Source of the DNA: an uncultured Flavobacteriales bacterium
GTDB lineage: Bacteria; Bacteroidota; Bacteroidia; Flavobacteriales; UBA1820
Direction: 5' to 3'
NCBI GenBank assembly: GCA_902462305.1
Contig: CABQBC010000002.1
Location: forward strand, 76,825-140,824
Length of the DNA: 64,000 nucleotides
The notes beneath the pieces are model-generated. The model saw only the letters and a program-made list of their open reading frames with translations. It did no database searches and was not told where the DNA came from. The position numbers were made by a program, and so were the translations under genes. Each line of letters starts with the position of its first letter. Position 1 is the stretch's first letter. Positions 13,791 to 28,333 of this stretch are shown in pieces.

Positions 13791-14324
13791 GTGGAAAAAC
13801 AGGAAGAAAACGTACAGTTGCCCCCGCTGAGGATACTCAGGACATTTCCCGAAACGATATCGGACGGGGAGGGGATACGTTTTTCCATATACCTGTCCGG
13901 CTGCGCGCATAACTGCCCCGGATGCCACAATCCCGAAAGTCACGATCCGGCATACGGCACTATCATAGACGAGAGTATCGTATGCGAAATAACATCCCGT
14001 ATAAATTCCAATCCGATACTCGACGGGGTGACATTTTCCGGTGGCGACCCTTTTTACAACCCGTACCGTTTCCGGGAACTGGCAAAACGCATAAAAGAAG
14101 ATACCGGGCATAACATTTGGTGCTATACCGGCTATACTTACGAGCGCATAGTGTCCGATCACGCACGTTATCCTGTACTGGAATACATAGACGTGCTGGT
14201 GGACGGGCCTTTCATAAAGAGTCTATACGACCCGCGTCTGGCTTTTCGCGGTTCGTCCAATCAAAGAATATTAAGGCTTTCCCCCTCCGGGGACACGGCC
14301 GAGGACATCTCCTGCGTGTTCTGA
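13791..14324 (+). CDS. nrdG: anaerobic ribonucleotide reductase activating protein (radical SAM)
   Basis: CAHNCPGCHN cluster (CxxxCxxC). 177 aa, directly downstream of nrdD. Apparent GTG start. Confidence 0.9.
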   Translation: MEKQEENVQLPPLRILRTFPETISDGEGIRFSIYLSGCAHNCPGCHNPESHDPAYGTIIDESIVCEITSRINSNPILDGVTFSGGDPFYNPYRFRELAKRIKEDTGHNIWCYTGYTYERIVSDHARYPVLEYIDVLVDGPFIKSLYDPRLAFRGSSNQRILRLSPSGDTAEDISCVF

Positions 14325-15391
14325 AAAATACGCCACCGGCAAGGCACGTCCCCTAACCGCCCGCGCACTGCCGTACCTGTACTTTTCAAAAAACATGAAT
14401 ATTAGCCTGGTAGTAAGGTTGATCCTGTGTATATGCCCGTCGAAAAGCAATACGCCCTGAAACTCCTGCGGGCAATCTATACCGTGACCGTATTCCTGTA
14501 CATCGCTCACCAATACGCTTCCTTCCCTGCGGGCGTTCATCACACAGGCCAGCGTATCGACTATGCCGCGCCTTACCACCTTGTCATCCGTGTGGCTGAA
14601 TACCAGATACGGAGCCCTTAACGGCTTGTCCGACCGGTTAAGGCAATAATCGTAAGGGTCGTAAATGCCTACTTTGTCTTTTTCATACCGCGCATTTTCA
14701 AGTTCGGAAAGCATCGCCGCATCCTTCATTCCGAAAATACGTATGATATTCGAACGGTACTGCAAACTGTCGAACTCACCGCCCGAAGAACTGCCGGAAG
14801 GCACATGCCAGGCATTTTCAGCCGTACTGGTAAGCGGATTTATCCCTGCCGCCGCCAATACAGGTATATCGCTAAGGTTAAGAATGTTCAACGCCGCCAG
14901 GCCTCCCGTCGACACGGACAGCAGATAACATCCGTCATGCCGGACGTTGTACTTTGACAATACATAATCGTAACCTGCAAGACAAGCCCGGTGAATCACA
15001 TGACTGCCTGCCGTGCGGGCGCGGTCTATCTTCAGTCTCCGGCTGTAATGCTCCGGAAGTCCGGTCATACACATCACGGCATAACCTTTCGATACGAGGT
15101 ACTTGGCCTGAATACTGTTTTCAATTTCAGTATGTCCGGGCTCAAATTTACAACCCCCTGAATTAAAGCATATTACCAAACGGGGGGGGTGGACTGTGCG
15201 TCCATGGCCTCAGGCGGAGCCATGAGCACTCCCGGAGAACTCTCCAGATGCGCTACGGTATCGCCAGGAAGCGAAGTGTTTACATCGACTGTGAAATACA
15301 CCGTTTCGCATCCTTTTCCGCAAGAAAAGACGACGAGGCCCAAAAAGACAGGAGCCAGCAATTTCACCGCCGGGTTAAAAAAATTTTTCAT
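14271..15391 (-). pseudogene. lipoprotein alpha/beta-hydrolase (esterase-like) split by a frameshift in a C8 tract
   Basis: The upstream piece (15173-15391) carries the SPII signal MKNFFNPAVKLLAPVFLGLVVFSC. The downstream piece (14271-15179) has hydrolase features: VICFNSGG (oxyanion-like) and SVSTGG (nucleophile elbow). The two frames meet at the homopolymer at 15182-15189. The span is 3n+2 nt, so one extra C would give a single 373-aa ORF. Confidence 0.6.
15182..15189. repeat. G8/C8 homopolymer tract at the frameshift junction
   Basis: cggggggggt on the plus strand, read directly from the sequence. Confidence 0.95.
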
Positions 15392-15473: not shown

Positions 15474-16550
15474 TTAAATCCCTCCGTACATTTTATCGTA
15501 ATACTCGGCATACGCGCCGCTGGTGACATTATCCATCCATTGTCCGTTGTCCAGATACCAGCGTACCGTCTTTTCCAGTCCTTCTTCGAATTGCAGGGAA
15601 GGCTCCCAGCCGAGCTCATCCTTGAGCCGCGAAGAATCTATCGCATAACGCATGTCATGCCCTTTCCTGTCCTCAACATAGGCTATAAGATCCAGCGAAG
15701 CGCCTTCCGGGCGCCCCAAGGCACGGTCCGTAACTTTTATCAGAAGTTTTACAAGGTCTATATTTTTCCACTCGTTGAAACCGCCCACGTTGTACGTGCG
15801 TCCGTCAATCCCGCGATGGAAAATAACGTCTATCGCACGTGCGTGATCCTCGACATACAACCAATCGCGTACATTCTCGCCCGTACCGTAAACCGGAAGA
15901 GGGCGGCGGCGGCGTATGTTATTTATGAACAACGGTATCAGTTTTTCAGGGAACTGGTTAGGTCCGTAGTTGTTCGAACAGTTGGATATGACTGCCGGCA
16001 AACCGTATGTATCGCGGAACGCGCGCACGAAATGATCCGACGATGCCTTCGATGCCGAATACGGACTGTGCGGGTCGTATTTGGTCTCTTCGGTGAAAAA
16101 ACCTGCTCCCGGTTCCAGAGAGCCATACACCTCGTCCGTGGAAATATGATAAAAGCGACGGCCCTCGAAATGCCCGTCCCATGCCTTCTTCGCTGCAAGC
16201 AACAGGTTTAACGTACCGATGACGTTTGTCACTGCAAACGCCGAAGGGTCTTCGATGCTCCTGTCCACGTGGCTTTCGGCGGCAAGGTGTATCACCCCGT
16301 CTATACCGTATACGGAAAAAACCTCATCCAGTGCTCCTGTATCGCATATATCGGCTTTTACGAACACATAGTTCGGAGCATTCTCCACATCGCGCAGGTT
16401 TTCCAGGTTGCCGGCATATGTAAGCTTGTCGAGGTTTACCACGCGGTACTGCGGGTATTTGTTCACCAGCAGGCGTACCACATGCGAGCCTATGAAGCCC
16501 GCCCCACCCGTAACCAGAATATTGCGTTCGTATTTTTTATCACCATCCAT
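15474..16550 (-). CDS. rfbB: dTDP-glucose 4,6-dehydratase
   Basis: ILVTGGAGFIGSHVV Rossmann motif and extended-SDR layout. 358 aa. Confidence 0.95.
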   Translation of the reverse strand: MDGDKKYERNILVTGGAGFIGSHVVRLLVNKYPQYRVVNLDKLTYAGNLENLRDVENAPNYVFVKADICDTGALDEVFSVYGIDGVIHLAAESHVDRSIEDPSAFAVTNVIGTLNLLLAAKKAWDGHFEGRRFYHISTDEVYGSLEPGAGFFTEETKYDPHSPYSASKASSDHFVRAFRDTYGLPAVISNCSNNYGPNQFPEKLIPLFINNIRRRRPLPVYGTGENVRDWLYVEDHARAIDVIFHRGIDGRTYNVGGFNEWKNIDLVKLLIKVTDRALGRPEGASLDLIAYVEDRKGHDMRYAIDSSRLKDELGWEPSLQFEEGLEKTVRWYLDNGQWMDNVTSGAYAEYYDKMYGGI

Positions 16551-16560
16551 AGCAAATATG

Positions 16561-17421
16561 TTATACGCTTTCGTTTTTCAAAATTTTCATACACTCCCGG
16601 AGAGAGTCTTTCCATTCGGGCACTTTTACGCCCGCCTTAAATATCTTATCAGTCGCCAGTACGCTGTATGCAGGGCGACGGACAGCCGAAGGGAAAACGT
16701 CCGAGCCGATAGCCTCCACACCCACGTCCATACCAGCCACACGGAATATCTCCACTGCAAAATCGTACCACGAAGCATGCCCACGGCCTGTATAGTGGTA
16801 CACGGAAAAACCATCCACCCCGTTTCCGAGTATTTTCATAGCGGCGCGTGCAAGGTCTGTGGCGTAGGTGGGCGTACCCACCTGGTCGCATACAACCTTC
16901 ACCTCACCTTTTTCACGGCCCAGGCGCAACATCGTCTTCACGAAGTTGTTCCCGAATTCCGAATACAGCCACGCCGTACGTATGACCGCCGCCCGGCATC
17001 CTGACGCTTCCACGAGCCTCTCCCCTTCGAGCTTCGTACGCCCGTAAACGCTCACAGGATCTGTGGCGTCGGTTTCCTTGAGAGGCAAGTGTCCCGTTCC
17101 GGGAAATACGTAATCGGTCGATATATGCACCATAGGTATGCCGTTTTCAAATGAGGCAAGCGCTACATTGCCCGCTCCTTCGGCATTTACAAGGCGGGCC
17201 GTTACTTCGTCCGTCTCGGCTTTTTCCACCGCCGTGTACGCCGCGCAGTTTATCACGGCATCAGCTTTTTCCGAAGCTATCAACCGCGCTATACCCCGCC
17301 GGTCGGTTATGTCGCCTTCGGGCATATCCGTAAACACGAAAATATGGTCCGGATATTCGGCGGATATTTTCCTGAGCGATAACCCCAACTGCCCGCATCC
17401 GCCGGTGACGAGTATCTTCAT
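16561..17421 (-). CDS. rfbD: dTDP-4-dehydrorhamnose reductase
   Basis: MKILVTGGCGQLG N-terminus. 286 aa. 4-nt overlap with rfbC. Confidence 0.93.
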   Translation of the reverse strand: MKILVTGGCGQLGLSLRKISAEYPDHIFVFTDMPEGDITDRRGIARLIASEKADAVINCAAYTAVEKAETDEVTARLVNAEGAGNVALASFENGIPMVHISTDYVFPGTGHLPLKETDATDPVSVYGRTKLEGERLVEASGCRAAVIRTAWLYSEFGNNFVKTMLRLGREKGEVKVVCDQVGTPTYATDLARAAMKILGNGVDGFSVYHYTGRGHASWYDFAVEIFRVAGMDVGVEAIGSDVFPSAVRRPAYSVLATDKIFKAGVKVPEWKDSLRECMKILKNESV

Positions 17422-17996
17422 TGCAATTTCTGTGTCTTTTCGTATTCGCAGCCGGAATCGGCGGCATCACGCAAACGCGGATGCCTACGGTCTTTTTCCG
17501 ACAGTATAATGTCCTGTAATGGCATTTTCCAGTCTATGCCTATGTCCGGATCGTCGTAAGCTATACCGGCCTCGGCCTGCGGAGCGTAATAATTGTCGCA
17601 CTTGTACTGGAAAACCGCCTCTCGGCTGAGAACGGCAAAACCATGTGCGAAGCCGCGAGGTATAAAAAACTGCCGCATATTTTCACCTGAAAGTTCTGCC
17701 GTCACGTACCTGCCGTAAGTAGGCGAGCCCTCTCGGATGTCCACCGCCACGTCCAGCACACGCCCAGACACTACGCGCACGAGTTTTGCCTGGGCATGAC
17801 TTCCCCTCTGGTAATGCAACCCCCTCAACACACCGTAAGAAGATTTCGACTGATTATCCTGCACAAAATCGACCGGGCATACTTTTTTGTCGAATTCCGC
17901 CTTGTTGTAGCTCTCGTAAAAATAGCCACGACCGTCGGCATGGATGGCAGGCTCTATCACGAAAACCCCTTCTATGTCCGTTTCGGTTATTTCCAT
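17418..17996 (-). CDS. rfbC: dTDP-4-dehydrorhamnose 3,5-epimerase
   Basis: Cupin-type RmlC sequence (GVFVIEP..., RGLHYQ, FIPRGFAHGF). Confidence 0.95.
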   Translation of the reverse strand: MEITETDIEGVFVIEPAIHADGRGYFYESYNKAEFDKKVCPVDFVQDNQSKSSYGVLRGLHYQRGSHAQAKLVRVVSGRVLDVAVDIREGSPTYGRYVTAELSGENMRQFFIPRGFAHGFAVLSREAVFQYKCDNYYAPQAEAGIAYDDPDIGIDWKMPLQDIILSEKDRRHPRLRDAADSGCEYEKTQKLQ

Positions 17997-17997
17997 G

Positions 17998-18873
17998 TCA
18001 TTTCCCCGCTAATTTGAGCAGATATTGCCCGTATTGGTTTTTTGCCATCGGCGCGGCGACTTCTTCGAGTTTTTCGCGCGTTATCCACCCGTGGCGGTAA
18101 GCTATCTCTTCCAGACAGGCTATCTTCAATCCTTGGCGTTTTTCCAACACCTCGACAAACGTCGAAGCTTGGGAAAGGCTGTCGAACGTACCGGTGTCCA
18201 ACCATGCGAACCCGCGTCCGAGCAATTGTACCGTGAGTTTTTTCTCGTCCAAAAATACCTGGTTGACGGACGTTATCTCCAGTTCTCCGCGCGGTGACGG
18301 TTTTATGCGTTTCGCTTTGTCCACTACGCTGTTCGGATAAAAGTAAAGCCCCGTGACAGCATAATTGGATTTCGGCGCGGAAGGTTTTTCCTCTATCGAC
18401 AGGACGTTGCCATGCGTGTCGAACTCGGCCACCCCGTAACGCTCCGGGTCGGACACATAATATCCGAACACAGTGGCTTTACCGTCTTTTTCCACCGATC
18501 GTGCGGCATCTTCGAGCATATGTGAAAAACTCTGCCCGTAAAATATATTGTCGCCCAGAACGAGGCACACGGAATCGCCTCCGATGAACTCCTCGCCTAT
18601 TATGAACGCCTGGGCCAGTCCGTCGGGAGAAGGCTGTACGGCATAACTGAGCCTCAGACCGAAATCTGAACCGTCGCCAAGCAACCTTTTGAACGAAGGC
18701 ACATCGTCAGGGGTAGATATGACCAATATGTCGCGTATCCCTGCCAGCATCAGCACCGACAGGGGGTAATACACCATAGGTTTGTCGAAAACGGGGAGCA
18801 GTTGTTTGCTCACGCCCTTGGTTATGGGATAAAGGCGCGTGCCGCTGCCTCCGGCCAGAATTATTCCTTTCAT
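17998..18873 (-). CDS. rfbA: glucose-1-phosphate thymidylyltransferase
   Basis: [19 protein letters not shown]-terminus, typical of RmlA. 291 aa. Confidence 0.95.
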
Positions 18874-18989
18874 GTTAAAGAAGGTTCGGTTTAAATATTC
18901 CTCCGCAAGGTACGATTTTGTAAATAAAATCGCGACAACTATACGGCGTAATAATTATTGCATTGCACATACAGACGGTGCGGGACGAT

Positions 18990-19847
18990 CTATTTTTCAC
19001 GTCCCAGATCTACCACAGGCGCATTTTTCCAGTCCGTAGCCGCAACTGCCGAGGCAACGTCCGAAAACCGCACTTCGTTAAGATAACGTGTCAGTTTACC
19101 TGCGGCGGACTTCAACCCGACATACGATTTAAACCTGCGCGCCAACGGGAGGCCCTCGACTACCGGTTGCCCGGCATCCAGATCACGCGGATGTATATAA
19201 CTCATAAGATAAGGCTGCCCGGAACTCCATTTTTTTATCAGAAAATACGGGAAAAGACGAAAATACCCTCCGCCGGAGAATATTATGTTCTTGCCGGCCA
19301 TTTTCTTTACGCTCACCGGGAATTCCTTTATCTCGCATCCGTTGTACCGCACGACACTGGGCACAACCTGTCTGTACGATGGCATGCCTCCGTGAGCATG
19401 ATGAGCCGGAAAAACCGAACAGTCGACGTCTATGCCGCATTCTCTCATAACTTCAAACGCCCACGGCTCGCTTTCACGTATAGAAAATCCCGGAGCGCGG
19501 AAGCAACGGACAGGCTTGCCCGTTATATCCTCAAGCAGCTTCACGGACGATTCGAGGTCACGGCGGAAGGCTTCGCGTCCTTGCTGCCATATCAACTGAT
19601 GATTCATCGTGTGCGAGCCTACTTCGTATTTTTCAGCTATGCGGCGTACAATATCCGGATATTTCCTGGCCACCCATCCTATAATGAAGAACGTAGCTTT
19701 CGTGTCCGTTTCTTCCAGTATGCGGAATATACGCTCCATATTTTCATAGATACGGACTTCGTAGTCGTTCCACTGCTGTTCGGTGCGCGTGGAGTCGTTG
19801 TCCAATAGGTGGAACCATTCCTCCACGTCAAATGTCAGGACGTTCAT
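18990..19847 (-). CDS. polysaccharide deacetylase family protein with DUF3473-type C-terminus
   Basis: N-terminal LTFDVEEWFH motif, ATFFIIGWVA, the HTMNH metal-site pattern and the C-terminal SGGGYFRLFPY segment. Confidence 0.85.
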   Translation of the reverse strand: MNVLTFDVEEWFHLLDNDSTRTEQQWNDYEVRIYENMERIFRILEETDTKATFFIIGWVARKYPDIVRRIAEKYEVGSHTMNHQLIWQQGREAFRRDLESSVKLLEDITGKPVRCFRAPGFSIRESEPWAFEVMRECGIDVDCSVFPAHHAHGGMPSYRQVVPSVVRYNGCEIKEFPVSVKKMAGKNIIFSGGGYFRLFPYFLIKKWSSGQPYLMSYIHPRDLDAGQPVVEGLPLARRFKSYVGLKSAAGKLTRYLNEVRFSDVASAVAATDWKNAPVVDLGREK

Positions 19848-21067
19848 CTTTCCAAATTTTTAAATGGATTATACTCCCAAGCATCAAACATAGGATGCGT
19901 AGGGAAAAGCAATATATCTGAGGCTACCAAAGAAGCTATAGGGAAACGTGCATCTTCAGTACACGCCTCTGTACCAGCTACCGTACTTAGCACAGGATAA
20001 TCTCCTGTGGATAATTTCATTCCGGAAGATTTCATAACATCTGTCACTTTCTTCTTAAAACGTTTATCCTTAAACACTGCGGCAAAACGCAAATAATAAT
20101 TGTCCAAGATAGCATCCTGCAGAAATACATCTTTATCAGCCATATGCGACAAATAATATGACCCGTTTTTCTTCCTGATGCCATTCATTGATTTAAGCCG
20201 GTCAAGCATTATCGCTCCAAGGATGTACTGAGCATTGCATAATCCAGAATTTGAACTTATTTTACGATAAGCTTTAAGATTGAATTTATCCGAACTTCTC
20301 TTGCGGGCCAACACTTTATCGGCCAAACAATAAAAAACAGGACGCACTGCAAGTCCGAAAACCGACATTTTAAAAATATATTTCATGTCGCAGAAAAAAC
20401 CACCGTCATATATGCCATTTTGCACATCCAATTCTCTTACCGCACTTACATATTCATCCTTGTATGTGACCACAGCTCCTCCATTGATAGTGCTTAACAT
20501 CTTTGCGCGGCCAAAACTCAATATTGCAAAATCTCCTCTTTGAGATATTATCCCCGGATTATAAATGTCTGTCATCGCAGTTTGGCAGAAATCCTCTATC
20601 ACCGAAAAATTCATCCCGGCCTTTGACTTCAATATGGCACTTATATCGGTAACAGCTCCGAACATATGAGCCACAATTACGGCTAAAGTATTATTAGAAA
20701 TCTTTTCGACTGTTTTCAACGGATCAATACAAAATGTATTAATATTTATATCCGCAAAAACAGGCACAAGTCCAGCATTTTCTACCGCTATCAGTACCGT
20801 AGGACATGTATAAGCGGGGATTATTACCTCTTTCTTTTCCGGTTGCGACGCGGCGAGACTTTTCAACAACGCACAAAGCGCATCCATACCGCTATGGAAA
20901 ATCGCAGATTCTTTCACCGCCAATGTTTTTTCCAATCCCTGTTTGAATTTTGCCCGAGATACACGAATATCCTGAGTAAAAATCCGTTCCATCACTTTCA
21001 CAATATCAGTAAAAGCGATAGGAACAGCCACAGACGGCACCATCATATGATACTTTGGAAATCTCAT
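19844..21067 (-). CDS. DegT/DnrJ/EryC1/StrS-family PLP-dependent sugar aminotransferase
   Basis: Fold-type I aminotransferase layout with SFGRAKML (PLP-lysine context). 4-nt overlap with the downstream deacetylase gene. Confidence 0.8.
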   Translation of the reverse strand: MRFPKYHMMVPSVAVPIAFTDIVKVMERIFTQDIRVSRAKFKQGLEKTLAVKESAIFHSGMDALCALLKSLAASQPEKKEVIIPAYTCPTVLIAVENAGLVPVFADININTFCIDPLKTVEKISNNTLAVIVAHMFGAVTDISAILKSKAGMNFSVIEDFCQTAMTDIYNPGIISQRGDFAILSFGRAKMLSTINGGAVVTYKDEYVSAVRELDVQNGIYDGGFFCDMKYIFKMSVFGLAVRPVFYCLADKVLARKRSSDKFNLKAYRKISSNSGLCNAQYILGAIMLDRLKSMNGIRKKNGSYYLSHMADKDVFLQDAILDNYYLRFAAVFKDKRFKKKVTDVMKSSGMKLSTGDYPVLSTVAGTEACTEDARFPIASLVASDILLFPTHPMFDAWEYNPFKNLER

Positions 21068-21071
21068 TATT

Positions 21072-22058
21072 TCAATAGATGTATTTCGTTACGGCCGACC
21101 CGACCAGCACATTAGCCCACTGAGGCATTATCTTCTTATAAACGGACAGAAGCGTTTTTTTATCCCTCAAGCCACCCGTAACGGGACCAGACTGGTTGAA
21201 ATACAACTGTTTTATCTCCGGTTTCCAATGTTTTTTAAAACCGAGCGTACCCTCGCCCTTGGAACTCCGCCCGAAAGAGAAAACTTTATAGCCGCTATCT
21301 ATGGCGTATTTTATCATCTCGCTGTACGCCAGGTACGGCACGAACAACTTATTGTACTCGTAAAGCGTACCGGCCCAGCAATTCTCTATTATACCGCCGA
21401 ACGACAACAGGAAACATCCGCCGACAGGCTTGCCTTCGTAATACGAACAGAATATTGTAGCCTCACCGTGTTCCCAGCCATCCAACAGGGCGGCAAAAAA
21501 CCGCTTTGGCTGTGGCGGAGAACCGAGACGCGTCATGTTCTTTCGATACACTTTCAGGAAATCGTCCAGAAGTTCGGATTTTCCGCGTTTTACCTCTATT
21601 CCGTTTTCGGAAGCTATGCGTATCTGCCTCCTTACATTGTATTTAAGCCCCGGAAATATACTATCGTGCCCGCCGCTGAGATCCAGATAAGCCGTCACCT
21701 TTTTATCGGAATAATATTCCGACGACTGATGGAAAGACCTTATTTCATACTCTCCGGAAACGGATCTTTCTATCTGCATAGCCACCGCAGGATCGGCACA
21801 TGCGGCTCCTCCGTAAGAGAAATGCGGCATGGAAACGAACCGGCCTTTTATTACCACACCGTTCATAAATCCCGCCATACGGCCAGTGCCATCGTCAACG
21901 TATTTGCGGTATTGCGGCTCATATCCGAACAACCCTGACAATATACGTGGGATCGACGGATTATGGGCAAGGGTGTACTCCCCGGCAACGGGATCCAGAG
22001 AAGATATAAAGTCATCAAGGATATCCCATGAATATGTATCGGATATTATTTCTTTCAC
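21072..22058 (-). CDS. FemAB-like (Acetyltransf_6/GNAT-fold) protein
   Basis: 328 aa. The pattern LKYNVRRQIRIASENGIEV ... FLKVYRKNMTRLGSPPQPKRFF ... GKPVGGCFLL ... FSFGRSSKGEGTLGFKKHW is typical of FemAB-related acyl/aminoacyl transferases. Confidence 0.7.
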   Translation of the reverse strand: MKEIISDTYSWDILDDFISSLDPVAGEYTLAHNPSIPRILSGLFGYEPQYRKYVDDGTGRMAGFMNGVVIKGRFVSMPHFSYGGAACADPAVAMQIERSVSGEYEIRSFHQSSEYYSDKKVTAYLDLSGGHDSIFPGLKYNVRRQIRIASENGIEVKRGKSELLDDFLKVYRKNMTRLGSPPQPKRFFAALLDGWEHGEATIFCSYYEGKPVGGCFLLSFGGIIENCWAGTLYEYNKLFVPYLAYSEMIKYAIDSGYKVFSFGRSSKGEGTLGFKKHWKPEIKQLYFNQSGPVTGGLRDKKTLLSVYKKIMPQWANVLVGSAVTKYIY

Positions 22059-22059
22059 T

Positions 22060-22779
22060 CTATAATCTGTTAAATACTAACATAAGAAAAAACTTGAAGT
22101 CACAGTATATACGTTTAATGCTAACTTTATTAAAAATATATCTGTAGATCATTTCCATTTTTATATCCTGTATCCACTTCGGCGCGCGTTTTACCTTTCC
22201 GGCATATACGTTGAAACTGCCTCCCAAGCCCATCATAGGCACAGGATAGACGCTGTGTATATCGTCGAGCATATATTCCTGTTTGGGAGATCCCATAGCC
22301 ACGAACACAAAATCGGGCCGCTTTTCGCAAATATCCTTTACGAGTACGTCTTTCTCCTGATCGGATTTGAAAAAACCGTTGCGAAAACCGACTATATCCA
22401 TTTCAGGATATTCAACATGCAGCTTTTTCACCACTTCATCTATCACCTGCTGTTCGGCGCCTACCAGATAATACTTCGCTACCGGATAACGCTTTATTAT
22501 CTCCAGCCACAAGTCGCACCCTGCTATCTTTACCGCTCCTTTTACTCCTTTCCTTTCCAAAGCCCATACCGCACCCACGCCGTCGCAATAACCGATATTT
22601 GAGTTTATTATATCCTTGAGCCTTTGCTGGCTGTAATACAGTTTATCGGAATTACATGCCACCATTATGCTTCGCGTGCTTACAGCAGCATCTATTATAT
22701 CGTCAAAACCCGAGAACGAATAAACCTTTATGCCGTTCAACACAGCACCGGGCCTTCCGTAAAAAACATCTGCCGTCAT
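22060..22779 (-). CDS. WecB/TagA/CpsF-family glycosyltransferase (WecG/TagA-like ManNAc(A) transferase)
   Basis: 239 aa. Motifs CDGVGAVWA, YYLVGAEQQV and FVAMGSPKQEY are characteristic of the GT26 family. Confidence 0.85.
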   Translation of the reverse strand: MTADVFYGRPGAVLNGIKVYSFSGFDDIIDAAVSTRSIMVACNSDKLYYSQQRLKDIINSNIGYCDGVGAVWALERKGVKGAVKIAGCDLWLEIIKRYPVAKYYLVGAEQQVIDEVVKKLHVEYPEMDIVGFRNGFFKSDQEKDVLVKDICEKRPDFVFVAMGSPKQEYMLDDIHSVYPVPMMGLGGSFNVYAGKVKRAPKWIQDIKMEMIYRYIFNKVSIKRIYCDFKFFLMLVFNRL

Positions 22780-22788
22780 ATATTTCCG

Positions 22789-23793
22789 CTATATGGTTTT
22801 AACAACAACTCCTCCCCACGAATATCCCACTCCGAAACCTGCCAACAGAATATTCATTCCCGGAGATAACTTACCTTCCTCCATCGCATTGTACAGCGCT
22901 ATCGGCACTGTGGACGAAACTGTATTACCCGTTTTTTCCATATACAAATAGAATTTTTCCTCCGGAATGCCTATTTTTTTACGCAGGAAATTCAACATGT
23001 ATTTGTTAGCTTGGTGAAAAACGAAAAAATCGATTTCATCCATTTTCATGTCGTTTTTCCCGAGAGTTTCATCAACCAGTGCAGGTACAGCTTCGAGCGT
23101 AAAATTGAATATCTCGCTCCCGTTCATGTACAGATAATCCGACGATACCGGGTTTCCGTTTTCATCGAAAGTCAAGTCATTAGCTGCGCCTGGATGACGG
23201 GCCCCTCCGTTTTTAACAATAAGGTTGCCGGCACCTTTACCGTCGGTCCCCAGCCCGAAATCCATTATCTGTGCAATTCCGTTGTCGGAAACGATCGTAG
23301 CCGATGCCCCGTCGCCGAAAATAGTGCGGTTACCTTTGTCTCTGGGATGTATATATTTGTTATATGTTTCAGCCGTTAGCAACAATACATTGCGGGCTAT
23401 ACCCGCACAAACCAGTCCTTTTGCAAGAGAAAGACCGTATATATATCCTGAACAACCCAGATTGAAATCCAGTGCGCCGCACGAAGTACTCAATCCGAGC
23501 CGGTCCTGAAGCACACAAGCCGTAGTCGGCAAAAAATAATCAGGGCTTTGCGTACATAACAGAACAAAATCGACCTCATCCCTTTTCACATTTCCCCTGG
23601 AGAACAGCCTTTCGGCGGCTTCTGCGGCCAAATCGGATGCTGTCTGACCTTCGGAAGCAACATGTCTTTCAGATACGCCTATTTTGGAGGCCACTTTTTC
23701 CACACTCCATTCGGGAAAATCCTTTACCAACTGTTCGTTCGTAACTATTGTTTGCGGGACATAGTACCCGATATCTTTTATATACGCTTTCAT
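22789..23793 (-). CDS. 3-oxoacyl-ACP synthase III (FabH-like KAS III)
   Basis: 334 aa. NLGCSGYIYGL (active-site Cys), HQAN and GNTVSSTVP motifs. Confidence 0.9.
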   Translation of the reverse strand: MKAYIKDIGYYVPQTIVTNEQLVKDFPEWSVEKVASKIGVSERHVASEGQTASDLAAEAAERLFSRGNVKRDEVDFVLLCTQSPDYFLPTTACVLQDRLGLSTSCGALDFNLGCSGYIYGLSLAKGLVCAGIARNVLLLTAETYNKYIHPRDKGNRTIFGDGASATIVSDNGIAQIMDFGLGTDGKGAGNLIVKNGGARHPGAANDLTFDENGNPVSSDYLYMNGSEIFNFTLEAVPALVDETLGKNDMKMDEIDFFVFHQANKYMLNFLRKKIGIPEEKFYLYMEKTGNTVSSTVPIALYNAMEEGKLSPGMNILLAGFGVGYSWGGVVVKTI

Positions 23794-23837
23794 AACTAAA
23801 TAGTTTTTTTAACTTCAGAATATTGTATATGAAAAAA

Positions 23838-24584
23838 TCATTGCAAAGTAAAGCCCCCGTCAAGCACCATGCCGATTCCCGTCATAAAGGACGATGCACC
23901 GGACAAAAGGAAAACCACGGCATAGGCCACTTCTTCCGGCCGGCCGTACCGTTTCATAGGATATTTTTCCATATCTGCACGAAGTTGCTCGCCTGTGATC
24001 GTCCCGGCTTCGAGCAACCCGGTATCTATCATTCCGGGACACACCGCATTCACTCTGATATTTTTCGGAGCGAGTTCCAGAGCGGCTACTCTGACAAACG
24101 AGCTGACCGCTCCTTTCGATGCCGAGTACATGGCATTCCCAACAATGGCGCTGCTCACACCAGCCACCGACGAAATGAACACGATGCTGCCGCCTTTGAC
24201 TATTTTTTTCTTTTTTAACAATTTTTGGGTAAGCAACACTGGAGCAACAGTATTTATATTCAATACCGTTTCCAAGTCGGCACGGTTTACGAATTGTACG
24301 GGAAGAGTCTTCACTATTCCCGCATTATTTACCACACCGTCCAATTTAGGGAGGCTTTCCGCCAAATGCTCTATATCGCTGTCATCGGCCATATCCGCCA
24401 CGAAAACACAATGCCCCTGTCCGTCCATCATTGACAGAGTTTCCCTGAGCCTGTCTTCACTACGGGCAGTTATCATAACGTTAGCTCCCATTCTTGAGCA
24501 TTCCACGGCCGTAGCTCTGCCTATTCCGGATGATGCTCCGGTTACAAGCACTGTTTTTCCTTCTAATGAATACGGGTTGTACAT
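23838..24584 (-). CDS. SDR-family oxidoreductase (FabG-like ketoreductase)
   Basis: TGASSGIGRA cofactor motif and the YSASK catalytic motif. 248 aa. Confidence 0.9.
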   Translation of the reverse strand: MYNPYSLEGKTVLVTGASSGIGRATAVECSRMGANVMITARSEDRLRETLSMMDGQGHCVFVADMADDSDIEHLAESLPKLDGVVNNAGIVKTLPVQFVNRADLETVLNINTVAPVLLTQKLLKKKKIVKGGSIVFISSVAGVSSAIVGNAMYSASKGAVSSFVRVAALELAPKNIRVNAVCPGMIDTGLLEAGTITGEQLRADMEKYPMKRYGRPEEVAYAVVFLLSGASSFMTGIGMVLDGGFTLQ

Positions 24585-24725
24585 AATTTATAATTCTATT
24601 AACGACGGACACATCCCATCCACATTCCAACTCATCCATAAATCCAGAAACAGCCGCGCTATACATATTCCAGAACCGCACGCCCCGTCCATAGTACCTG
24701 GCTATTCCCTCAGAAAGAACCGTTA

Positions 24726-24959
24726 TCAGCCTTTTTTGGATTTGACTATATCGAACAGATCCGCTATCGTACGGGAATTACGGATATCATCGCCTTTTAT
24801 AGTGACCTTATATTCCTGGTCCACCATAGCTATTATCGTCAAAGCCGCAAGCGATGTCCATTCTTCCAAATCACGGAAATTGGTTTCCGGCTTGAATTCC
24901 GACGGATCCGTTTCATCAAACTGAGCTGCAAAATTTTCTACAAATTCTTTTATTTCCAT
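24726..24959 (-). CDS. acyl carrier protein-like
   Basis: 77 aa acidic helical protein. DLEEWTSLAALTIIAMV is the phosphopantetheine-attachment-type helix. Sits next to the KASIII and SDR genes. Confidence 0.75.
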   Translation of the reverse strand: MEIKEFVENFAAQFDETDPSEFKPETNFRDLEEWTSLAALTIIAMVDQEYKVTIKGDDIRNSRTIADLFDIVKSKKG

Positions 24960-24972
24960 AATTGTATCGATT

Positions 24973-25920
24973 TTATTTTGTGTTCTTCAAAGATACGATT
25001 AATTCATTTAGCTTTTCCCTCAACTCCGCACTTACCTTATGCCGGCCGTATAGAGACTCTCCGCTCAGAAGCATATTAAGGCAAAAAACCACCATTCTGC
25101 GCATATCTATCACTAAGACCTCTCCTTCTCCGAGTTTACGTGCGCTCATGGCTCCGCATTCCAACAACCCTTCTCGCAGTTTCCAGGGGTTCCTCCTTAT
25201 ACTGGCAGATTGCAGATGTAATGGTGTTTTTACCGTCAACTCATGGCCGTCGTAGTCCACAACCTTCACATCATATGTTTCAGTATATATTTTTACGGGA
25301 TATAGCGGTCCTACCATATCTTCTACCGCATGCAATTCTGTAATATTATCCATTGTAGCCCCGAACATTACAATCTTCCCGTTGTTTTCTATCAATTTAC
25401 GGTACGGGCTGTTTTGCCCGAAAGGAGTCTCGTCCAAATGGTGGGCCGACACATACTCATCAGCACGCGGGCCTATGGCCACGACCGAATGCGTAGGATG
25501 AAGACTCCGTTTGGCCCCGTCCATCAAAGCAAAATATTCGTTCACCGCACCTACTGCAACAGGTGCAGTACGGACATCGAAAACAGTATCCACATGCGGG
25601 AACGAATACGGGAGCGCCGATAATAAAAGCGTATGTTTTGACGTATCGACAGTCTTTTCAATCCGTTCGGCCAAAAACTTGGTGCCGCCGGCCACCTTTC
25701 CTATATTCATAGTCGAGGTATGAAACATTACATCGCATCCCAACTGCATTTCATCGAATACAGAATCGACTTCCTCTTTAGAAATACGCGTGCGTTTCAT
25801 CCTCTCAGATATCTGCTTCAGATAACGCTTTTCACCCCTGCGCTTTACCGCCCGTTTCAAAAAACCGGGAGCCAACGCAAAAAACACAATGTCGAAATAT
25901 CTTTTTAAATGTCTTTTCAT
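24973..25920 (-). CDS. AAC(3)-fold (Antibiotic_NAT-like) N-acyltransferase
   Basis: Matches the aminoglycoside 3-N-acetyltransferase fold: VMFHTSTMNIGKVAGG, RSLHPTHSVVAIGPRADEY and FGATMDNITELHAVE. Confidence 0.7.
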   Translation of the reverse strand: MKRHLKRYFDIVFFALAPGFLKRAVKRRGEKRYLKQISERMKRTRISKEEVDSVFDEMQLGCDVMFHTSTMNIGKVAGGTKFLAERIEKTVDTSKHTLLLSALPYSFPHVDTVFDVRTAPVAVGAVNEYFALMDGAKRSLHPTHSVVAIGPRADEYVSAHHLDETPFGQNSPYRKLIENNGKIVMFGATMDNITELHAVEDMVGPLYPVKIYTETYDVKVVDYDGHELTVKTPLHLQSASIRRNPWKLREGLLECGAMSARKLGEGEVLVIDMRRMVVFCLNMLLSGESLYGRHKVSAELREKLNELIVSLKNTK

Positions 25921-25938
25921 TGTAAAAACATCTGTTAA

Positions 25939-27207
25939 TCATTTTACAAAGTCATAAGCGCCATTTTTGGATGCCTCAAGCATATAATGTGACATAGCAT
26001 TGAACATGAACGCATTGCTCCAACGCATGTAAGGTATTTTAGAACTCACGCCCTTTTTAAGCTGATAATAAAAATACCCTTTTTCATCCTGCATATTGGC
26101 GATAGTCCAATTCATTACCTTATCGGCAAGATCGCGGCATTTCCCATCGAACCTGTGCAAACGCGAGAGTGTCACAAACAATTGTCCGGGACAGTGTATG
26201 TCTATCGGATAGGTCATGTCATGGTAATACTTCGGAGTGCCGTCGGGCTCGAAAAAATTATTCACGTAAAATTCAAATCCGCGTTCCATGTTGCCGTCAA
26301 AAGACTTATCGCCGGTCGTTTCACCGTAACAAGCAAGAGCGTCGAGATTATATCCCGTATGAAAACTGTCTATCCAACCCTGCACCGGCGAAGTGCCGTA
26401 AACCCACGAACCATCATCTGCCTGAGCGCGACAACATGCCATGACAGAAGCCTGCGCCGCATCCAGGCACTCCCTGTCACCGGTATGCGCATAACACATA
26501 CCCAACAGTTTGCTTCCCAAAAGAGAAGCATTGAAAACGGTATTGTTTCCTTCAAGCGGGCTGTATGAAAACAAGAATCCTCCTTCGAACTCGGTACGAT
26601 GCAGATCGTTAAGCACAAACCGCGATGAGGACAATGCCACGTCGAGATATTTTCCGTTGCCCGTAATCCTTGCGGCATCCTCGAGCGCGGTAGCGCAAAA
26701 TGCAGTCGCCACCACCGTAGGAGTATTCTTGGGGAAAAGAAATTCCAGCCGCGCCTGCCAGTCGAAATTATACCCCCAGCAAGCTCCGCTGTAACCCTCG
26801 GACTTCAACCCTATGAGTATCCCGGCCAGTTCGTCTATCCGCGATATCAATTCTTCTTCATCCCCAAGATACCCGGCCATGAAAGGATGCGCATGTACGG
26901 TTTCGTACAAGTTGCAATAACCTTGCAAAAACAGGCCGACACCTTTGGCATTGTATTCTTTCGGGACCATGAACATACGGCGCAGATTGAACGGCGAACG
27001 CTTGAATCCCTGTATCATCACCAAACGGAGAAACCCGGATTTTTTCAAAAGCGGAATGCTCGAAAACACCTTTGAATTGAGCCCGTCATAAGGGTCCCAA
27101 CCTTTGAACTTCTCCGCCTGACAATACCGGCACAGTTTTTCAAATGCCTTTAAAGTTTTTCCGGCCATTGTATTTTCCGTCGTTCCTATTTCCATTTCTT
27201 CACTCAT
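25939..27207 (-). CDS. conserved hypothetical enzyme, possibly an alpha/alpha-toroid fold
   Basis: 422 aa with no signal peptide. Motifs GWDPYDGLNS, CWGYNFDWQ and DDGSWVYG. I do not recognise the family. Confidence 0.6.
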   Translation of the reverse strand: MSEEMEIGTTENTMAGKTLKAFEKLCRYCQAEKFKGWDPYDGLNSKVFSSIPLLKKSGFLRLVMIQGFKRSPFNLRRMFMVPKEYNAKGVGLFLQGYCNLYETVHAHPFMAGYLGDEEELISRIDELAGILIGLKSEGYSGACWGYNFDWQARLEFLFPKNTPTVVATAFCATALEDAARITGNGKYLDVALSSSRFVLNDLHRTEFEGGFLFSYSPLEGNNTVFNASLLGSKLLGMCYAHTGDRECLDAAQASVMACCRAQADDGSWVYGTSPVQGWIDSFHTGYNLDALACYGETTGDKSFDGNMERGFEFYVNNFFEPDGTPKYYHDMTYPIDIHCPGQLFVTLSRLHRFDGKCRDLADKVMNWTIANMQDEKGYFYYQLKKGVSSKIPYMRWSNAFMFNAMSHYMLEASKNGAYDFVK

Positions 27208-27298
27208 TATCTAAATTCAGAATCTGACAGGGCATCCGTCCTTATGTATCTGTATTTTACCGGAATCCTGTTTTTGCACAAATAGTTTCATATATTCA

Positions 27299-28333
27299 CT
27301 ATACTCTATATATTTCATGATAAAATTTGCGGTAGTCTTTACACTCATTATTAACGTTTTTTAAACACCCGCCACTCACCACGCTTACAATTTTATCTGC
27401 AAAATCCACACAATCCCTATTTCTGAACAGTACGGTTCCGCCAGGTCTTGGCACGACATCGGAAGCTACAACAGATTTTCCTAAATATAAAGCCTCGCGT
27501 ATAGAAATTGCATCTCCATCGGTATTGGTCGGCCTCAGTACCACATCCGCCCGAAGGATCAATCGTATAAAAGAAACTGGGGATTCCCAAATCAACACAT
27601 TTTCAGATATACCATATTCGATTATATTGTTTTTATATTGTTCCATCAACAAAACCTGGTCAGTATTGTTAGCGACAACAAACAACAAATAAAAGTTTTT
27701 TAAATTATCATTTGTTTTCAACATGCGGATCATTTCAATACACATGTCCAATCCATATAAGTCGACATTCTCATGCAACACCAAATTCCCGGCATTAGAC
27801 ACCAGCAATACGTTGTTGTCAGATTGCCTGACATTGTCAATCCACGATAACAAATCCGCCGGCAAATCAGATTCAGACTCTACGTCGGGAGGCAAAAATG
27901 CAGGCATAACATAATAACGGCAGGTCGAAGATTGCTTGTATAACATATTGTAAACGACTTGACTCACGCAAACGACTACATTACAACAACCGACAGCCCA
28001 TCTTGTAAATTTAAAAAACGGTTCGATGGACAGATCTCTATGAATGGTCACTATTGTGCGTTTTCTCAAAATAATAGCGCACATGAATACGTTGAACAGC
28101 CGCAAGATATAATGCCCGCTATGTATATGAACGATATCTGCCTGGAAAACTTTCTTCAAATACAAGAAAATATTCAATGAACGAATATTAAAAACACCAG
28201 GGTACCTTACTTTTCCCTCATCGACGAAATCGAACGAATAATCTCCTTTCAACAACGAAACCAGACGTTTGATATGGATACTGACCCCGCCTATATTTTG
28301 CGGTGCAGGACCGATTTGCAATATTCTTTTCAT
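27299..28333 (-). CDS. glycosyltransferase, GT-B fold (GT4-like)
   Basis: I prefer the start MKRILQIGPAPQNIGGVSIH at 28333. C-terminal DGDAISIREALYLGKSVVASDV resembles the EX7E region. Confidence 0.8.
   Translation of the reverse strand: MKRILQIGPAPQNIGGVSIHIKRLVSLLKGDYSFDFVDEGKVRYPGVFNIRSLNIFLYLKKVFQADIVHIHSGHYILRLFNVFMCAIILRKRTIVTIHRDLSIEPFFKFTRWAVGCCNVVVCVSQVVYNMLYKQSSTCRYYVMPAFLPPDVESESDLPADLLSWIDNVRQSDNNVLLVSNAGNLVLHENVDLYGLDMCIEMIRMLKTNDNLKNFYLLFVVANNTDQVLLMEQYKNNIIEYGISENVLIWESPVSFIRLILRADVVLRPTNTDGDAISIREALYLGKSVVASDVVPRPGGTVLFRNRDCVDFADKIVSVVSGGCLKNVNNECKDYRKFYHEIYRV

What the first reader, a model, noticed from the sequence alone, without database searches (positions are those of the whole stretch)
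14271..15391. C8 homopolymer splits a lipoprotein esterase gene directly downstream of the glycan operon; one extra base restores it
A 72-aa ORF carries a clean SPII lipoprotein signal and ends 3 codons after a C8 run on the coding strand. A 302-aa alpha/beta-hydrolase ORF, with VICFNSGG and SVSTGG motifs, opens in the +1 frame across the same run. By hand translation, C9 gives one continuous protein (...DAQSTPPRLVICFNSGG...), and the combined span is 3n+2 nt. This could be a sequencing or assembly homopolymer error, a fixed pseudogene, or slipped-strand ON/OFF switching. The gene product is probably a surface or periplasmic esterase. It sits next to a locus rich in O/N-acyl transferases, so switching would alter glycan acylation. 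Homopolymer phase variation is well known in Campylobacter, Neisseria and Haemophilus. In Bacteroidales, surface variation is classically driven by invertible promoters, so this would be atypical.
Basis: partly seen in the sequence, partly recalled or inferred. Interest (0 to 1): 0.6.

Follow-up and report, generated by a model that had tools for sequence, protein, structure and literature searches.

The report
Poly-C tract switches a glycan-locus lipoprotein hydrolase
A run of eight C's splits an otherwise intact, selectively conserved lipoprotein hydrolase gene at the end of a surface-sugar locus in an uncultured human-gut Bacteroidota bacterium. Public assemblies of the same species carry 7, 8 or 9 C's, so this is a real, fast-mutating on/off tract of a well-known kind, seen here in an unusual host group.

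Summary
A C8 run on the minus strand (window 15182-15189) separates a 72-aa lipoprotein-signal ORF from a 302-aa hydrolase ORF. C9 fuses them into 373 aa.

It is not an assembly error. The C8 product occurs on more than 300 public contigs. The C7 product is on about 21 contigs and the fused C9 protein on about 10. All three lengths were read directly in DNA, sometimes on identical 4-kb flanks. A tree of 29 copies needs at least 14 independent length changes.

It is not a decaying pseudogene. All 28 copies examined are intact once the tract is set to C9. dN/dS is about 0.12 on both sides of the tract, and within-lineage pN/pS (0.22) matches the neighbouring rml genes.

Two sister lineages, 14-19% divergent in DNA, keep the tract (C8 and C9). 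Distant homologues are single lipoproteins inside polysaccharide loci and have no tract.

Best reading: a slipped-strand contingency gene, OFF in this window, encoding a probable glycan-modifying serine hydrolase.

Not shown: switching within one population, or any enzyme activity.

A second tract (G10-G15) varies at the 3' end of an O-acetyltransferase in the same locus.

This is a new member of a known kind, of moderate interest.

The parts
15182..15189 (-). Poly-C tract (C8 on the coding minus strand), inside codons Thr68-Pro69-Pro70. C9 or C6 is in frame; C8 and C7 are out of frame.
   Evidence: Lengths 7, 8 and 9 read in DNA of other assemblies.
15173..15391 (-). 5' part of the gene as it stands in the window: a 72-aa ORF with signal peptide, lipobox Cys24 and the first two beta-strands of the hydrolase fold. 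It ends ...TPPVW*.
   Evidence: The exact product P0010 is on more than 300 contigs.
15320..15391 (-). SPII-type lipoprotein signal (MKNFFNPAVKLLAPVFLGLVVFS|C). The SC lipobox is conserved in full-length homologues.
   Evidence: Read directly from the sequence and the alignment consensus '...SCxK'. No signal-peptide predictor was available.
14271..15179 (-). 3' part: a 302-aa ORF in the -1 frame (open from 15209) carrying the alpha/beta-hydrolase core: NSGG oxyanion motif, Ser161, Asp245/270 and His303.
14910..14912 (-). Codon TCG for the predicted nucleophile Ser161 (S-V-S-T-G-G elbow), invariant in 26 homologues.
14484..14486 (-). Codon CAC for the predicted catalytic His303 (EYGH), invariant in 26 homologues.
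14271..14363 (-). Clade-specific C-terminal tail (residues 343-373). It is disordered in the model, absent from distant homologues, and its last 54 nt overlap the 3' end of convergent nrdG.
   Evidence: (dN/dS 0.45-0.49).
15474..38254 (-). Polysaccharide biosynthesis locus immediately upstream, same strand. In order: UDP-sugar dehydrogenase, 2-epimerase, O-acetyltransferase, Wzx, BD-FAE-like esterase, GT4s, AAC(3)-like N-acetyltransferase, SDR, KASIII, WecG, FemAB/GNAT, DegT, CE4 deacetylase, rmlA/C/D/B.
35270..35279 (-). Second hypervariable tract. It is G10 on the coding strand and forms the last Gly codons and stop of the EpsC/WcaB-like O-acetyltransferase (35869..35267). G11 and G15 were read in other assemblies, and all three reading frames occur.

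Best explanation
The region encodes one gene, not two. It is a roughly 373-aa lipoprotein of the alpha/beta-hydrolase fold with a Ser161-Asp-His303 triad, placed at the 3' end of a surface-polysaccharide locus. Within codons Thr-Pro-Pro it carries a poly-C tract that gains and loses single C's far faster than ordinary sites mutate, most simply by slipped-strand mispairing during replication. C9 gives the full lipoprotein (ON). C8, as in this window, and C7 terminate it after 72 or 75 residues (OFF). The gene therefore behaves as a homopolymer contingency (phase-variable) locus that is OFF in most sampled populations.

Shown here: the tract, its frame logic, natural C7/C8/C9 alleles on near-identical backgrounds, an intact and selectively constrained ORF, the fold and conserved triad, and linkage to glycan loci.

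Inferred: the slippage mechanism, reversibility within a clone, adaptive bet-hedging, and that the enzyme removes acyl groups from the locus's glycan so that switching changes the surface glycan's acylation and hence phage or antibody recognition.
For: 1. Reality of the tract and alleles. C8 is in the window, in L001, in L018-27 and in three JGI contigs. C7 is in L006-15, and C9 in L003-5 and L016. In the protein index, the C8 product is on 310+30+24+18 contigs, the C7 product on 21, and the fused proteins on 7+3 (block counts 568 / 42 / about 12).

2. Recurrent change. L007 (C7) and L020 (C8), and L010 (C7) and L021 (C8), have identical 4.1-kb flanks. L005 (C9) and L013 (C7) differ at 2 sites per 1000. 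An NJ tree of 29 copies needs at least 14 length changes, whereas only 3.6% of ordinary sites (134 of 3733) vary at all.

3. Functional gene. All 28 copies give an intact 371-373-aa ORF with the tract set to C9. dN/dS is 0.12-0.13 for both the part before and the part after the tract, at dS of about 0.8. Within-lineage pN/pS is 0.22, against 0.24 for rmlB, 0.27 for rmlD and 0.51 for rmlC. The binomial test against neutrality gives p=1.6e-6.

4. One protein. Distant homologues (40-46% identity, 342-352 aa) are single lipoproteins that align continuously across the tract position. The AlphaFold model (pLDDT 86, pTM 0.84) places strands encoded on both sides of the tract in one domain with pLDDT above 90.

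5. Tract retained. Sister lineages 14-19% divergent in DNA keep it (L002 C8, L017 C9). CCC makes up only 21% of Pro codons, and none of 10 Pro-Pro pairs in window genes is CCCCCC. G/C runs of 6-7 nt are absent from the window.

6. Glycan link. The gene follows rmlACDB here. Three distant homologues sit inside polysaccharide operons between a CapD/FnlA-like dehydratase and wzx. The domain also ends proteins with phage tail-fibre repeats.

7. A second G tract in the same locus also varies: G10, G11 and G15.
Against: No reads were available, so heterogeneity within one population, which is the defining behaviour of phase variation, is not shown. All evidence is between assemblies.

OFF alleles dominate. 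By contig count, C8 is about 92%, C7 about 5% and C9 about 2%. C9 is undercounted, because full-length proteins split into many distinct sequences and only 40 of 208 cluster members were read. Comparing like with like on the C-terminal half gives 62 contigs against 7, which suggests ON is at most about 10%.

C7, which is two steps from ON, is at least as common as C9. That pattern also fits plain mutational noise around a mostly-OFF allele.

C6, C10 and longer alleles were not seen.

The family's oxyanion-motif His is Asn in this clade (NSGGC against HSGGG). No curated family or solved close relative fixes the substrate, so hydrolase activity, and esterase rather than peptidase activity, remain unproven.
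Confidence: 0.6

Rival explanations
1. Mutational hot spot without a programmed role. The tract is simply error-prone, most strains carry loss-of-function alleles of a dispensable accessory gene (a polymorphic pseudogene or gene in early decay), and C9 alleles are the remaining functional minority.
For: OFF alleles make up at least 90% of assemblies, and C7 is at least as frequent as C9. No within-sample switching has been shown. The second tract affects only a C-terminal tail, which looks like tolerated noise.
Against: There are no other disabling mutations in 28 copies. Purifying selection within the lineage equals that on the rml genes and is strong between lineages on both halves. The tract is kept through dS of about 0.8 in three lineages despite rare CCC usage. 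Both OFF and ON alleles occur in two separate lineages.
Confidence: 0.2
2. Recoding. The dominant C8 allele is itself expressed, because ribosomes shift -1 on the perfect slippery heptamer C_CCC_CCC (zero frame AC[C CCC CCC] GUU), or because RNA polymerase adds a C on the run. Either route gives the same ...TPPRLVICF... protein plus a short 72-aa product.
For: The heptamer is in the correct zero frame, and a -1 shift reproduces the C9 protein exactly. C8 is the modal allele in the main lineage and is also present in a sister lineage, while the gene is under purifying selection. A zero-frame stop follows two codons later.
Against: There is no conserved or unusually stable RNA structure downstream of the tract in three lineages (z = -0.58, -1.37, +0.65) and no Rfam element. 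In-frame C9 alleles exist in both lineages, so the out-of-frame arrangement is not fixed. From general knowledge rather than a test here: efficient bacterial -1 sites are A/U-rich (dnaX A_AAA_AAG), CCC_C is known for +1 rather than -1 slippage, and transcriptional slippage is best documented on A/T runs.
Confidence: 0.12
3. Sequencing or assembly homopolymer error. The true sequence is C9 and the gene is simply intact.
For: Homopolymers are error-prone on some platforms, and the origin of the window is unknown.
Against: The same C8 is called in hundreds of independent assemblies made with different assemblers (NODE_, k141_, Logan, NCBI MAGs). C7 and C9 are called in others with identical flanks.
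Confidence: 0.03
4. Gene fission. The two ORFs are separate functional genes, a small lipoprotein and a cytoplasmic hydrolase started at the TTG or an internal GTG/ATG.
For: Both halves are under purifying selection. Gene callers annotate two genes.
Against: The strands encoded upstream belong to the same folded domain. Downstream starts chosen by gene callers (274, 267 or 265 aa) remove the oxyanion motif. The hydrolase would lose its signal peptide. Fused alleles exist, and all distant homologues are single proteins.
Confidence: 0.03

Closest known systems
Homopolymeric G/C-tract contingency genes of Campylobacter jejuni, Neisseria, Haemophilus and Helicobacter (SSR-mediated phase variation of capsule/LOS-modifying enzymes; reviews PMC11868660, PMC8355987)
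   Same: An intragenic poly-G/C tract of 8-10 nt whose +/-1 changes turn a surface-glycan-modifying gene ON or OFF. The ORF is otherwise intact. Tract length is polymorphic among very close strains. More than one tract lies in a glycan locus.
   Different: The host is an uncultured gut Bacteroidota commensal. In that phylum, described surface variation is by invertible promoters and shufflons (PMC3090145, PMC11868660), and my literature searches found no homopolymer example. ON is rare among assemblies. Switching rate and within-clone reversibility are untested. The switched enzyme is a putative hydrolase rather than a transferase.
Phase-variable capsule O-acetylation: E. coli K1 neuO (heptanucleotide repeats; cited in PMC3090145) and meningococcal oatC homopolymer slippage (from my own knowledge)
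   Same: Repeat-length switching alters the acyl decoration of a surface polysaccharide rather than its backbone. The O-acetyltransferase in this locus also carries a variable G tract.
   Different: Here the clear ON/OFF target is a putative de-acylating lipoprotein. The acetyltransferase tract lies at the extreme 3' end and changes only the C-terminal tail (200, 211 or 239 aa). No chemistry has been shown.
Mycobacterium tuberculosis complex homopolymer phase variants (e.g. glpK 7C; PMC10334774)
   Same: Recurrent, homoplastic +/-1 changes in a short C/G run were detected by comparing many sequenced samples, with reversible frameshifts in an otherwise conserved gene.
   Different: A different phylum and niche, and a different gene function (metabolic/tolerance rather than surface glycan). 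Reversibility was confirmed experimentally there but not here.
BD-FAE / hormone-sensitive-lipase-type and S9-type alpha/beta-hydrolases (Pfam PF20434, PF00326)
   Same: Alpha/beta-hydrolase fold, an HGGG-like oxyanion motif position, a Sm-x-Ser-x-Sm elbow and a conserved His.
   Different: The window protein itself matches no Pfam, NCBIfam or PHROG model. Structural matches reach only TM of about 0.5. The clade has Asn in place of the motif His. This is an uncurated family of about 966 representatives, often fused to phage tail-fibre or Ig domains.
Programmed -1 frameshift sites (dnaX, IS elements)
   Same: A perfect X_XXY_YYZ heptamer in frame, a short zero-frame product and a long trans-frame product.
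   Different: There is no stimulatory structure and no fixed out-of-frame arrangement, and the heptamer is all-C.

Membership tests
SSR (homopolymer) contingency / phase-variable gene | Simple-sequence tract within the reading frame, long enough to be hypermutable | tested here: met
   C8 at 15182-15189. It is an outlier against the window's run-length spectrum.
SSR (homopolymer) contingency / phase-variable gene | Tract-length changes toggle between a full-length and a truncated product | tested here: met
   C9 gives 373 aa, C8 gives 72 aa and C7 gives 75 aa. All three products occur in public data.
SSR (homopolymer) contingency / phase-variable gene | Recurrent, independent length changes among closely related strains | tested here: met
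   Identical flanks carry different lengths. At least 14 changes are needed on a 29-tip tree.
SSR (homopolymer) contingency / phase-variable gene | Gene otherwise intact and under purifying selection | tested here: met
SSR (homopolymer) contingency / phase-variable gene | High-frequency reversible switching within a clonal population | not testable with these tools
   This needs read pile-ups or single-colony assays. Only consensus assemblies were available.
SSR (homopolymer) contingency / phase-variable gene | Phenotype differs between ON and OFF | not testable with these tools
   No isolate or glycan data.
Alpha/beta-hydrolase serine hydrolase | Alpha/beta-hydrolase fold | tested here: met
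   AF2 pLDDT 86 and pTM 0.84. Foldseek probability 1.0 to S9-type hydrolase domains, TM about 0.5.
Alpha/beta-hydrolase serine hydrolase | Nucleophile elbow Sm-x-Ser-x-Sm plus catalytic His and acid | tested here: met
   Ser161, Gly163 and His303 are invariant, and Asp245 and Asp270 are at least 90% conserved in 26 sequences. Which Asp is catalytic was not resolved.
Alpha/beta-hydrolase serine hydrolase | Oxyanion-hole HGGG-type motif | tested here: inconclusive
   The family has HSGGG. This clade has NSGGC or NSGGC-like.
Alpha/beta-hydrolase serine hydrolase | Esterase activity on an acylated glycan | not testable with these tools
   Inferred only from locus context and phage tail-fibre fusions.
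Pfam BD-FAE (PF20434) | Score at or above the gathering threshold | tested here: not met
   The window protein has no hit. Six of 10 homologues match only weakly, with best E-value 8e-5.
Bacterial SPII lipoprotein | Basic n-region, hydrophobic h-region and lipobox ending in Cys | tested here: met
   The signal MKNFFNPAVKLLAPVFLGLVVFS-C was read directly, and the SC is conserved in homologues. No dedicated predictor was run.
Programmed -1 ribosomal frameshift site | X_XXY_YYZ heptamer in the zero frame | tested here: met
   AC[C CCC CCC]GUU.
Programmed -1 ribosomal frameshift site | Stimulatory downstream structure (or upstream SD-like element), conserved | tested here: not met
   Fold z-scores are -0.58, -1.37 and +0.65, the predicted structures differ between lineages, and there is no Rfam hit.
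Programmed -1 ribosomal frameshift site | Out-of-frame arrangement conserved in relatives | tested here: inconclusive
   C8 is modal and shared with L002, but C9 in-frame alleles occur in both lineages, and distant homologues are in frame with no tract.
Bacteroides-type invertible promoter | Promoter flanked by inverted repeats upstream of the gene or locus | tested here: not met
   Only a weak intragenic inverted repeat (74%) lies near the gene, and a simple palindrome lies upstream of the locus.

The most novel reading that the evidence does not exclude
The out-of-frame C8 allele, modal in the main lineage and also found in a sister lineage while the gene stays under strong purifying selection, may be the working allele. 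It would be decoded by -1 ribosomal slippage on C_CCC_CCC or by transcriptional slippage, giving a fixed ratio of a 72-aa lipopeptide to the full hydrolase. More broadly, this uncultured gut Bacteroidota lineage may run a multi-locus homopolymer 'phasome' for glycan decoration in place of the invertible promoters typical of its relatives.
Probability: 0.12. Interest if true: 0.7.

Novelty: new member of a known kind. Interest (0 to 1): 0.5.

Why it matters
Surface variation in gut Bacteroidota is described in terms of DNA inversions. This looks like a conserved homopolymer switch on a glycan-modifying enzyme in an abundant but uncultured human-gut lineage, backed by hundreds of public assemblies. 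If confirmed, it would mean slipped-strand contingency loci also operate in these commensals. It gives a concrete site whose ON/OFF ratio can be read directly from existing metagenomic reads and correlated with phage load, IgA or host state. It is also a warning for annotation: public records annotate this gene as two hypothetical proteins. The protein family is uncurated and recurs in polysaccharide loci and on phage tail fibres, so it is a candidate new glycan esterase family.

Tried and rejected
- **GTDB genome scans.** A protein-pattern scan and a DNA-pattern scan both returned only chance matches, so no named species genome was obtained. The organism label comes only from NCBI MAG titles.
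- **JGI metagenome scan.** The DNA-pattern scan gave three more C8 copies and two chance hits.
- **Curated families.** Pfam, NCBIfam and PHROGs gave no family for the window protein. The PDB sequence search gave only a weak HGGG-region hit.
- **RNA and repeats.** RNA folding and Rfam found no frameshift stimulator. Repeat searches found no invertible-promoter repeats.
- **Promoter scan.** The sigma-70 promoter scan was at background level, and it is not appropriate for Bacteroidota anyway.
- **Literature.** Searches for homopolymer phase variation in Bacteroidota or Bacteroides found only a speculation about a C4-to-C5 frameshift in a B. fragilis acetyltransferase (PMC3090145), plus general reviews. 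The recoding review and the E. coli frameshift proteomics paper held nothing specific on all-C heptamers.
- **Readings rejected.** I rejected assembly error, fixed pseudogene and two-gene fission, for the reasons given under the rival explanations.
Full report
**1. Observation**

On the minus strand the window reads ...GAC GCA CAG TCC ACC CCC CCC GTT TGG TAA. The run is exactly C8, at window 15182-15189.

- A 72-aa ORF (15391..15173, minus) begins MKNFFNPAVKLLAPVFLGLVVFSC..., a signal peptide with a lipobox cysteine. It stops two sense codons after the run.
- A 302-aa ORF (15179..14271, minus) is listed from a TTG just after the run. Its frame is open from 15209, so it crosses the run.
- The combined span is 1121 nt, which is 3n+2.
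- C9 (or C6) yields one ORF of 373 (372) aa reading ...DAQSTPPRLVICFNSGG.... C7 yields ...TPPFGNML*.
- The downstream frame is -1 relative to the upstream one, which is equivalent to one extra base in the DNA.

The run is not a chance feature of this sequence. G/C runs fall off as 940, 198 and 35 for lengths 3, 4 and 5. There are none of length 6 or 7, against 8.6 expected under an order-3 Markov model. There is then one run of 8 and one of 10, against about 0.26 expected for 8 or longer.

**2. Not an assembly artefact, and one gene rather than two**

The nine homologues found split into two groups.

- Close relatives are annotated as fragments.
- Seven distant relatives (40-46% identity), six of them 342-352 aa and one a 284-aa N-terminally short sequence. 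The six full-length ones are single lipoproteins that align continuously across the tract position (consensus xPxRLVIYCHSGGG).

An exact-sequence cluster look-up showed the following contig counts.

| Product | Tract | Contigs |
|---|---|---|
| 72-aa peptide | C8 | 310, plus 72 for three near-identical variants |
| 75-aa peptide ending FGNML | C7 | 21 |
| Full 373-aa fused proteins | C9 | 7 + 3 |

I fetched the DNA and read the tract directly.

- C8: window, L001, L018-27, L028, L030, L032.
- C7: L006-15.
- C9: L003-5, L016.

The contigs come from many independent human-gut metagenome assemblies built with different assemblers. NCBI labels MAGs that carry the identical fragment 'Flavobacteriales bacterium'.

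The contig census is about 92% C8, 5% C7 and 2% C9. This undercounts C9, because full-length proteins split into many distinct sequences and only 40 of 208 cluster members were read. Comparing the commonest C-terminal haplotypes (62 contigs against 7) suggests ON is at most about 10%.

**3. Hypermutability**

With the tract masked, main-lineage copies differ at 0-10 sites per 1000 over 4.1 kb. Tract length is scattered across that diversity.

- L007 (C7) and L020 (C8) have identical flanks, as do L010 (C7) and L021 (C8).
- L005 (C9) and L013 (C7) differ at 2 sites per 1000.
- A neighbour-joining tree of 29 copies needs at least 14 tract-length changes by Fitch parsimony.
- Only 134 of 3733 ordinary sites vary at all.

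Sampling was stratified by allele, so the count of 14 is not a rate estimate. It does show many independent events.

**4. Functional constraint**

- Setting the tract to C9 gives an intact 371-373-aa ORF in all 28 copies, with no other frameshift or nonsense mutation.
- Two sister lineages exist: L017 (14% DNA divergence, C9) and L002 (19%, C8).
- Between the window and these lineages, dN/dS is 0.12-0.13 at dS of about 0.8. The value is the same for codons 1-67 upstream of the tract and for the part downstream.
- Within the main lineage there are 24 synonymous and 17 non-synonymous segregating sites (pN/pS 0.22). The neighbours give 0.24 (rmlB), 0.27 (rmlD) and 0.51 (rmlC).
- The departure from the neutral N:S ratio has binomial p=1.6e-6.
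- The tract persists in all three lineages even though CCC is only 21% of Pro codons, and none of the 10 Pro-Pro pairs in window genes is CCCCCC.
- Distant homologues have no homopolymer at the equivalent site, so the tract is a derived feature of this clade.

**5. The protein**

- A 26-sequence alignment gives a confident AlphaFold model (pLDDT 86.2, pTM 0.84).
- Strands 29-38 and 49-58 are encoded upstream of the tract, and strand 72-76 downstream. All belong to one alpha/beta-hydrolase domain with pLDDT above 90.
- Residues 343-373 are disordered, absent from distant homologues, overlap the convergent nrdG gene, and evolve faster (dN/dS about 0.47).
- Ser161 (in S-V-S-T-G-G), Gly163 and His303 are invariant. 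Asp245 and Asp270 are at least 90% conserved.
- The family's HSGGG motif is NSGGC in this clade.
- Foldseek finds S9-type hydrolase domains in the PDB (TM about 0.5) and phage 'esterases' in BFVD.
- The window protein matches no Pfam, NCBIfam or PHROG model. Some homologues weakly match BD-FAE, Peptidase_S9 and Hydrolase_4.
- A profile search of 1.84 billion representatives finds 966 relatives. About 20 are stand-alone proteins of 330-360 aa. Many are C-terminal domains of large proteins, including two with phage tail-fibre repeats and one with GDSL and Ig domains.

**6. Context**

The gene follows rmlA-C-D-B at the 3' end of a 23-kb minus-strand polysaccharide locus, 15474-38254. The locus encodes:

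- a UDP-sugar dehydrogenase and 2-epimerase
- an EpsC/WcaB-like O-acetyltransferase
- Wzx
- a BD-FAE/HSL-like esterase
- GT4 glycosyltransferases
- an AAC(3)-like N-acetyltransferase
- SDR and KASIII enzymes
- WecG
- a FemAB/GNAT protein
- DegT
- a CE4 deacetylase

Three distant homologues also lie inside polysaccharide operons, between a CapD/FnlA-like dehydratase and wzx. A role in modifying the locus's glycan, probably de-acylation, is a reasonable inference. It is not demonstrated.

**7. Mechanism and rivals**

*Slipped-strand contingency gene (confidence 0.6).* The directly observed fact is DNA-level length polymorphism that toggles the frame of a constrained gene. The simplest mechanism is slipped-strand mispairing, which makes this a contingency locus.

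*Recoding on the C8 allele (0.12).* The site AC[C CCC CCC]G is a perfect in-frame X_XXY_YYZ heptamer, and a -1 shift gives exactly the C9 protein. That would explain why the modal allele is 'OFF' yet the gene is constrained. Against it:

- no conserved or stable downstream structure (z = -0.58, -1.37, +0.65)
- no Rfam element
- in-frame C9 alleles in both lineages
- from general knowledge, all-C heptamers and C runs are not known as efficient -1 or transcriptional slippage sites

*Non-adaptive hot spot with segregating null alleles (0.2).* This fits the OFF predominance and the frequency of C7. It fits poorly with the selection data and with retention of the tract.

*Assembly error (0.03) and gene fission (0.03).* Both are effectively excluded.

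No inverted repeats of the invertible-promoter type flank the gene or the locus start.

**8. Comparison with what is known**

It works like the poly-G/C contingency genes that modify capsule or LOS in Campylobacter, Neisseria and Haemophilus (PMC11868660, PMC8355987). It also resembles the repeat-controlled capsule O-acetylation of E. coli K1 (cited in PMC3090145). The way it was detected here resembles the homoplastic homopolymer variants found across M. tuberculosis genomes (PMC10334774).

On the membership tests, the tract, frame logic, recurrent polymorphism and constraint are all met. Reversible switching within a clone and phenotype are untestable here.

For Bacteroidota, the open literature I could search describes invertases and shufflons. 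It contains only a passing speculation about a C4/C5 frameshift in a B. fragilis acetyltransferase. Absence from that library is not proof of novelty.

**9. Second tract**

The only other long G/C run in the window (35270-35279) is G10 on the coding strand. It forms the last glycine codons and the stop of the locus's O-acetyltransferase.

- Other assemblies carry G11 (L039-42) and G15 (L043-45).
- Protein tails imply G13 and interrupted alleles.
- Products are 200/201, 211/212 and 238/239 aa in all three frames.
- One contig (ERZ28563806 scaffold_969) carries esterase C9 together with acetyltransferase G11.

So this organism has at least two hypervariable G/C tracts, both in the glycan locus.

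**10. Verdict**

The feature is real and biologically meaningful. It is best classed as a new member of the homopolymer phase-variation class, in an unusual host phylum. The switched protein family is uncurated, and a small chance of recoding remains. Interest is moderate (0.5).

Noticed in passing
window 35270-35279 (gene 35869..35267, minus): A second hypervariable tract, G10 on the coding strand, sits at the very 3' end of an EpsC/WcaB-like O-acetyltransferase. Other assemblies have G11 and G15, protein tails imply G13 and interrupted alleles, and the products are 200/201, 211/212 or 238/239 aa. Only the C-terminal tail changes, and the functional effect is unknown.
   Followed up: partly
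window 35280-35300 and 15177-15181: On the C-rich strand both long tracts are followed by GTTTG (C8-GTTTGGTAA and C10-GTTTGTAAGG). Next to the second tract lies a perfect 8-bp hairpin, TGTAAGGA-CA-TCCTTACA. This may be chance. No explanation was found.
   Followed up: no
whole window: G/C homopolymers of 6-7 nt are completely absent, against about 8.6 expected under an order-3 Markov model, while A/T runs of 6-8 nt are common (120, 29 and 6). This suggests genome-wide avoidance of mid-length G/C runs, which makes the two long tracts stand out.
   Followed up: partly
window 14271-14363 (minus), overlapping nrdG 13791-14324 (+): The hydrolase has a clade-specific, predicted-disordered 31-aa C-terminal tail. 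Its last 54 nt overlap the 3' end of the convergent nrdG gene, and its dN/dS (about 0.47) is much higher than that of the core (about 0.08).
   Followed up: partly
window 15161-15172 (codons 77-80 of the fused protein): The family's near-invariant oxyanion-motif histidine (HSGGG) is asparagine in this clade (NSGGC). The sister lineages share it, so it is a fixed change of unknown catalytic consequence.
   Followed up: no
window 31963-32826 (minus): A second alpha/beta-hydrolase (BD-FAE / hormone-sensitive-lipase-like, Pfam E-value 9e-24) lies inside the same polysaccharide locus, together with a CE4 deacetylase at 18990-19847. The locus therefore carries several de-acylating enzymes as well as at least three acyl/acetyl-transferases.
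   Followed up: no
P0075, P0089, P0064 (profile-search hits, not in the window): The hydrolase domain recurs at the C-terminus of large proteins with phage tail-fibre repeats, or with GDSL plus Ig domains. This hints that the family acts on surface polysaccharides as a receptor-modifying enzyme.
   Followed up: partly
window 22789-25920 (minus): KASIII (FabH-like), an SDR (FabG-like) and an AAC(3)-like N-acetyltransferase sit within the glycan locus. This suggests the polysaccharide carries an unusual N-acyl (possibly 3-hydroxyacyl) amino-sugar substituent.
   Followed up: no
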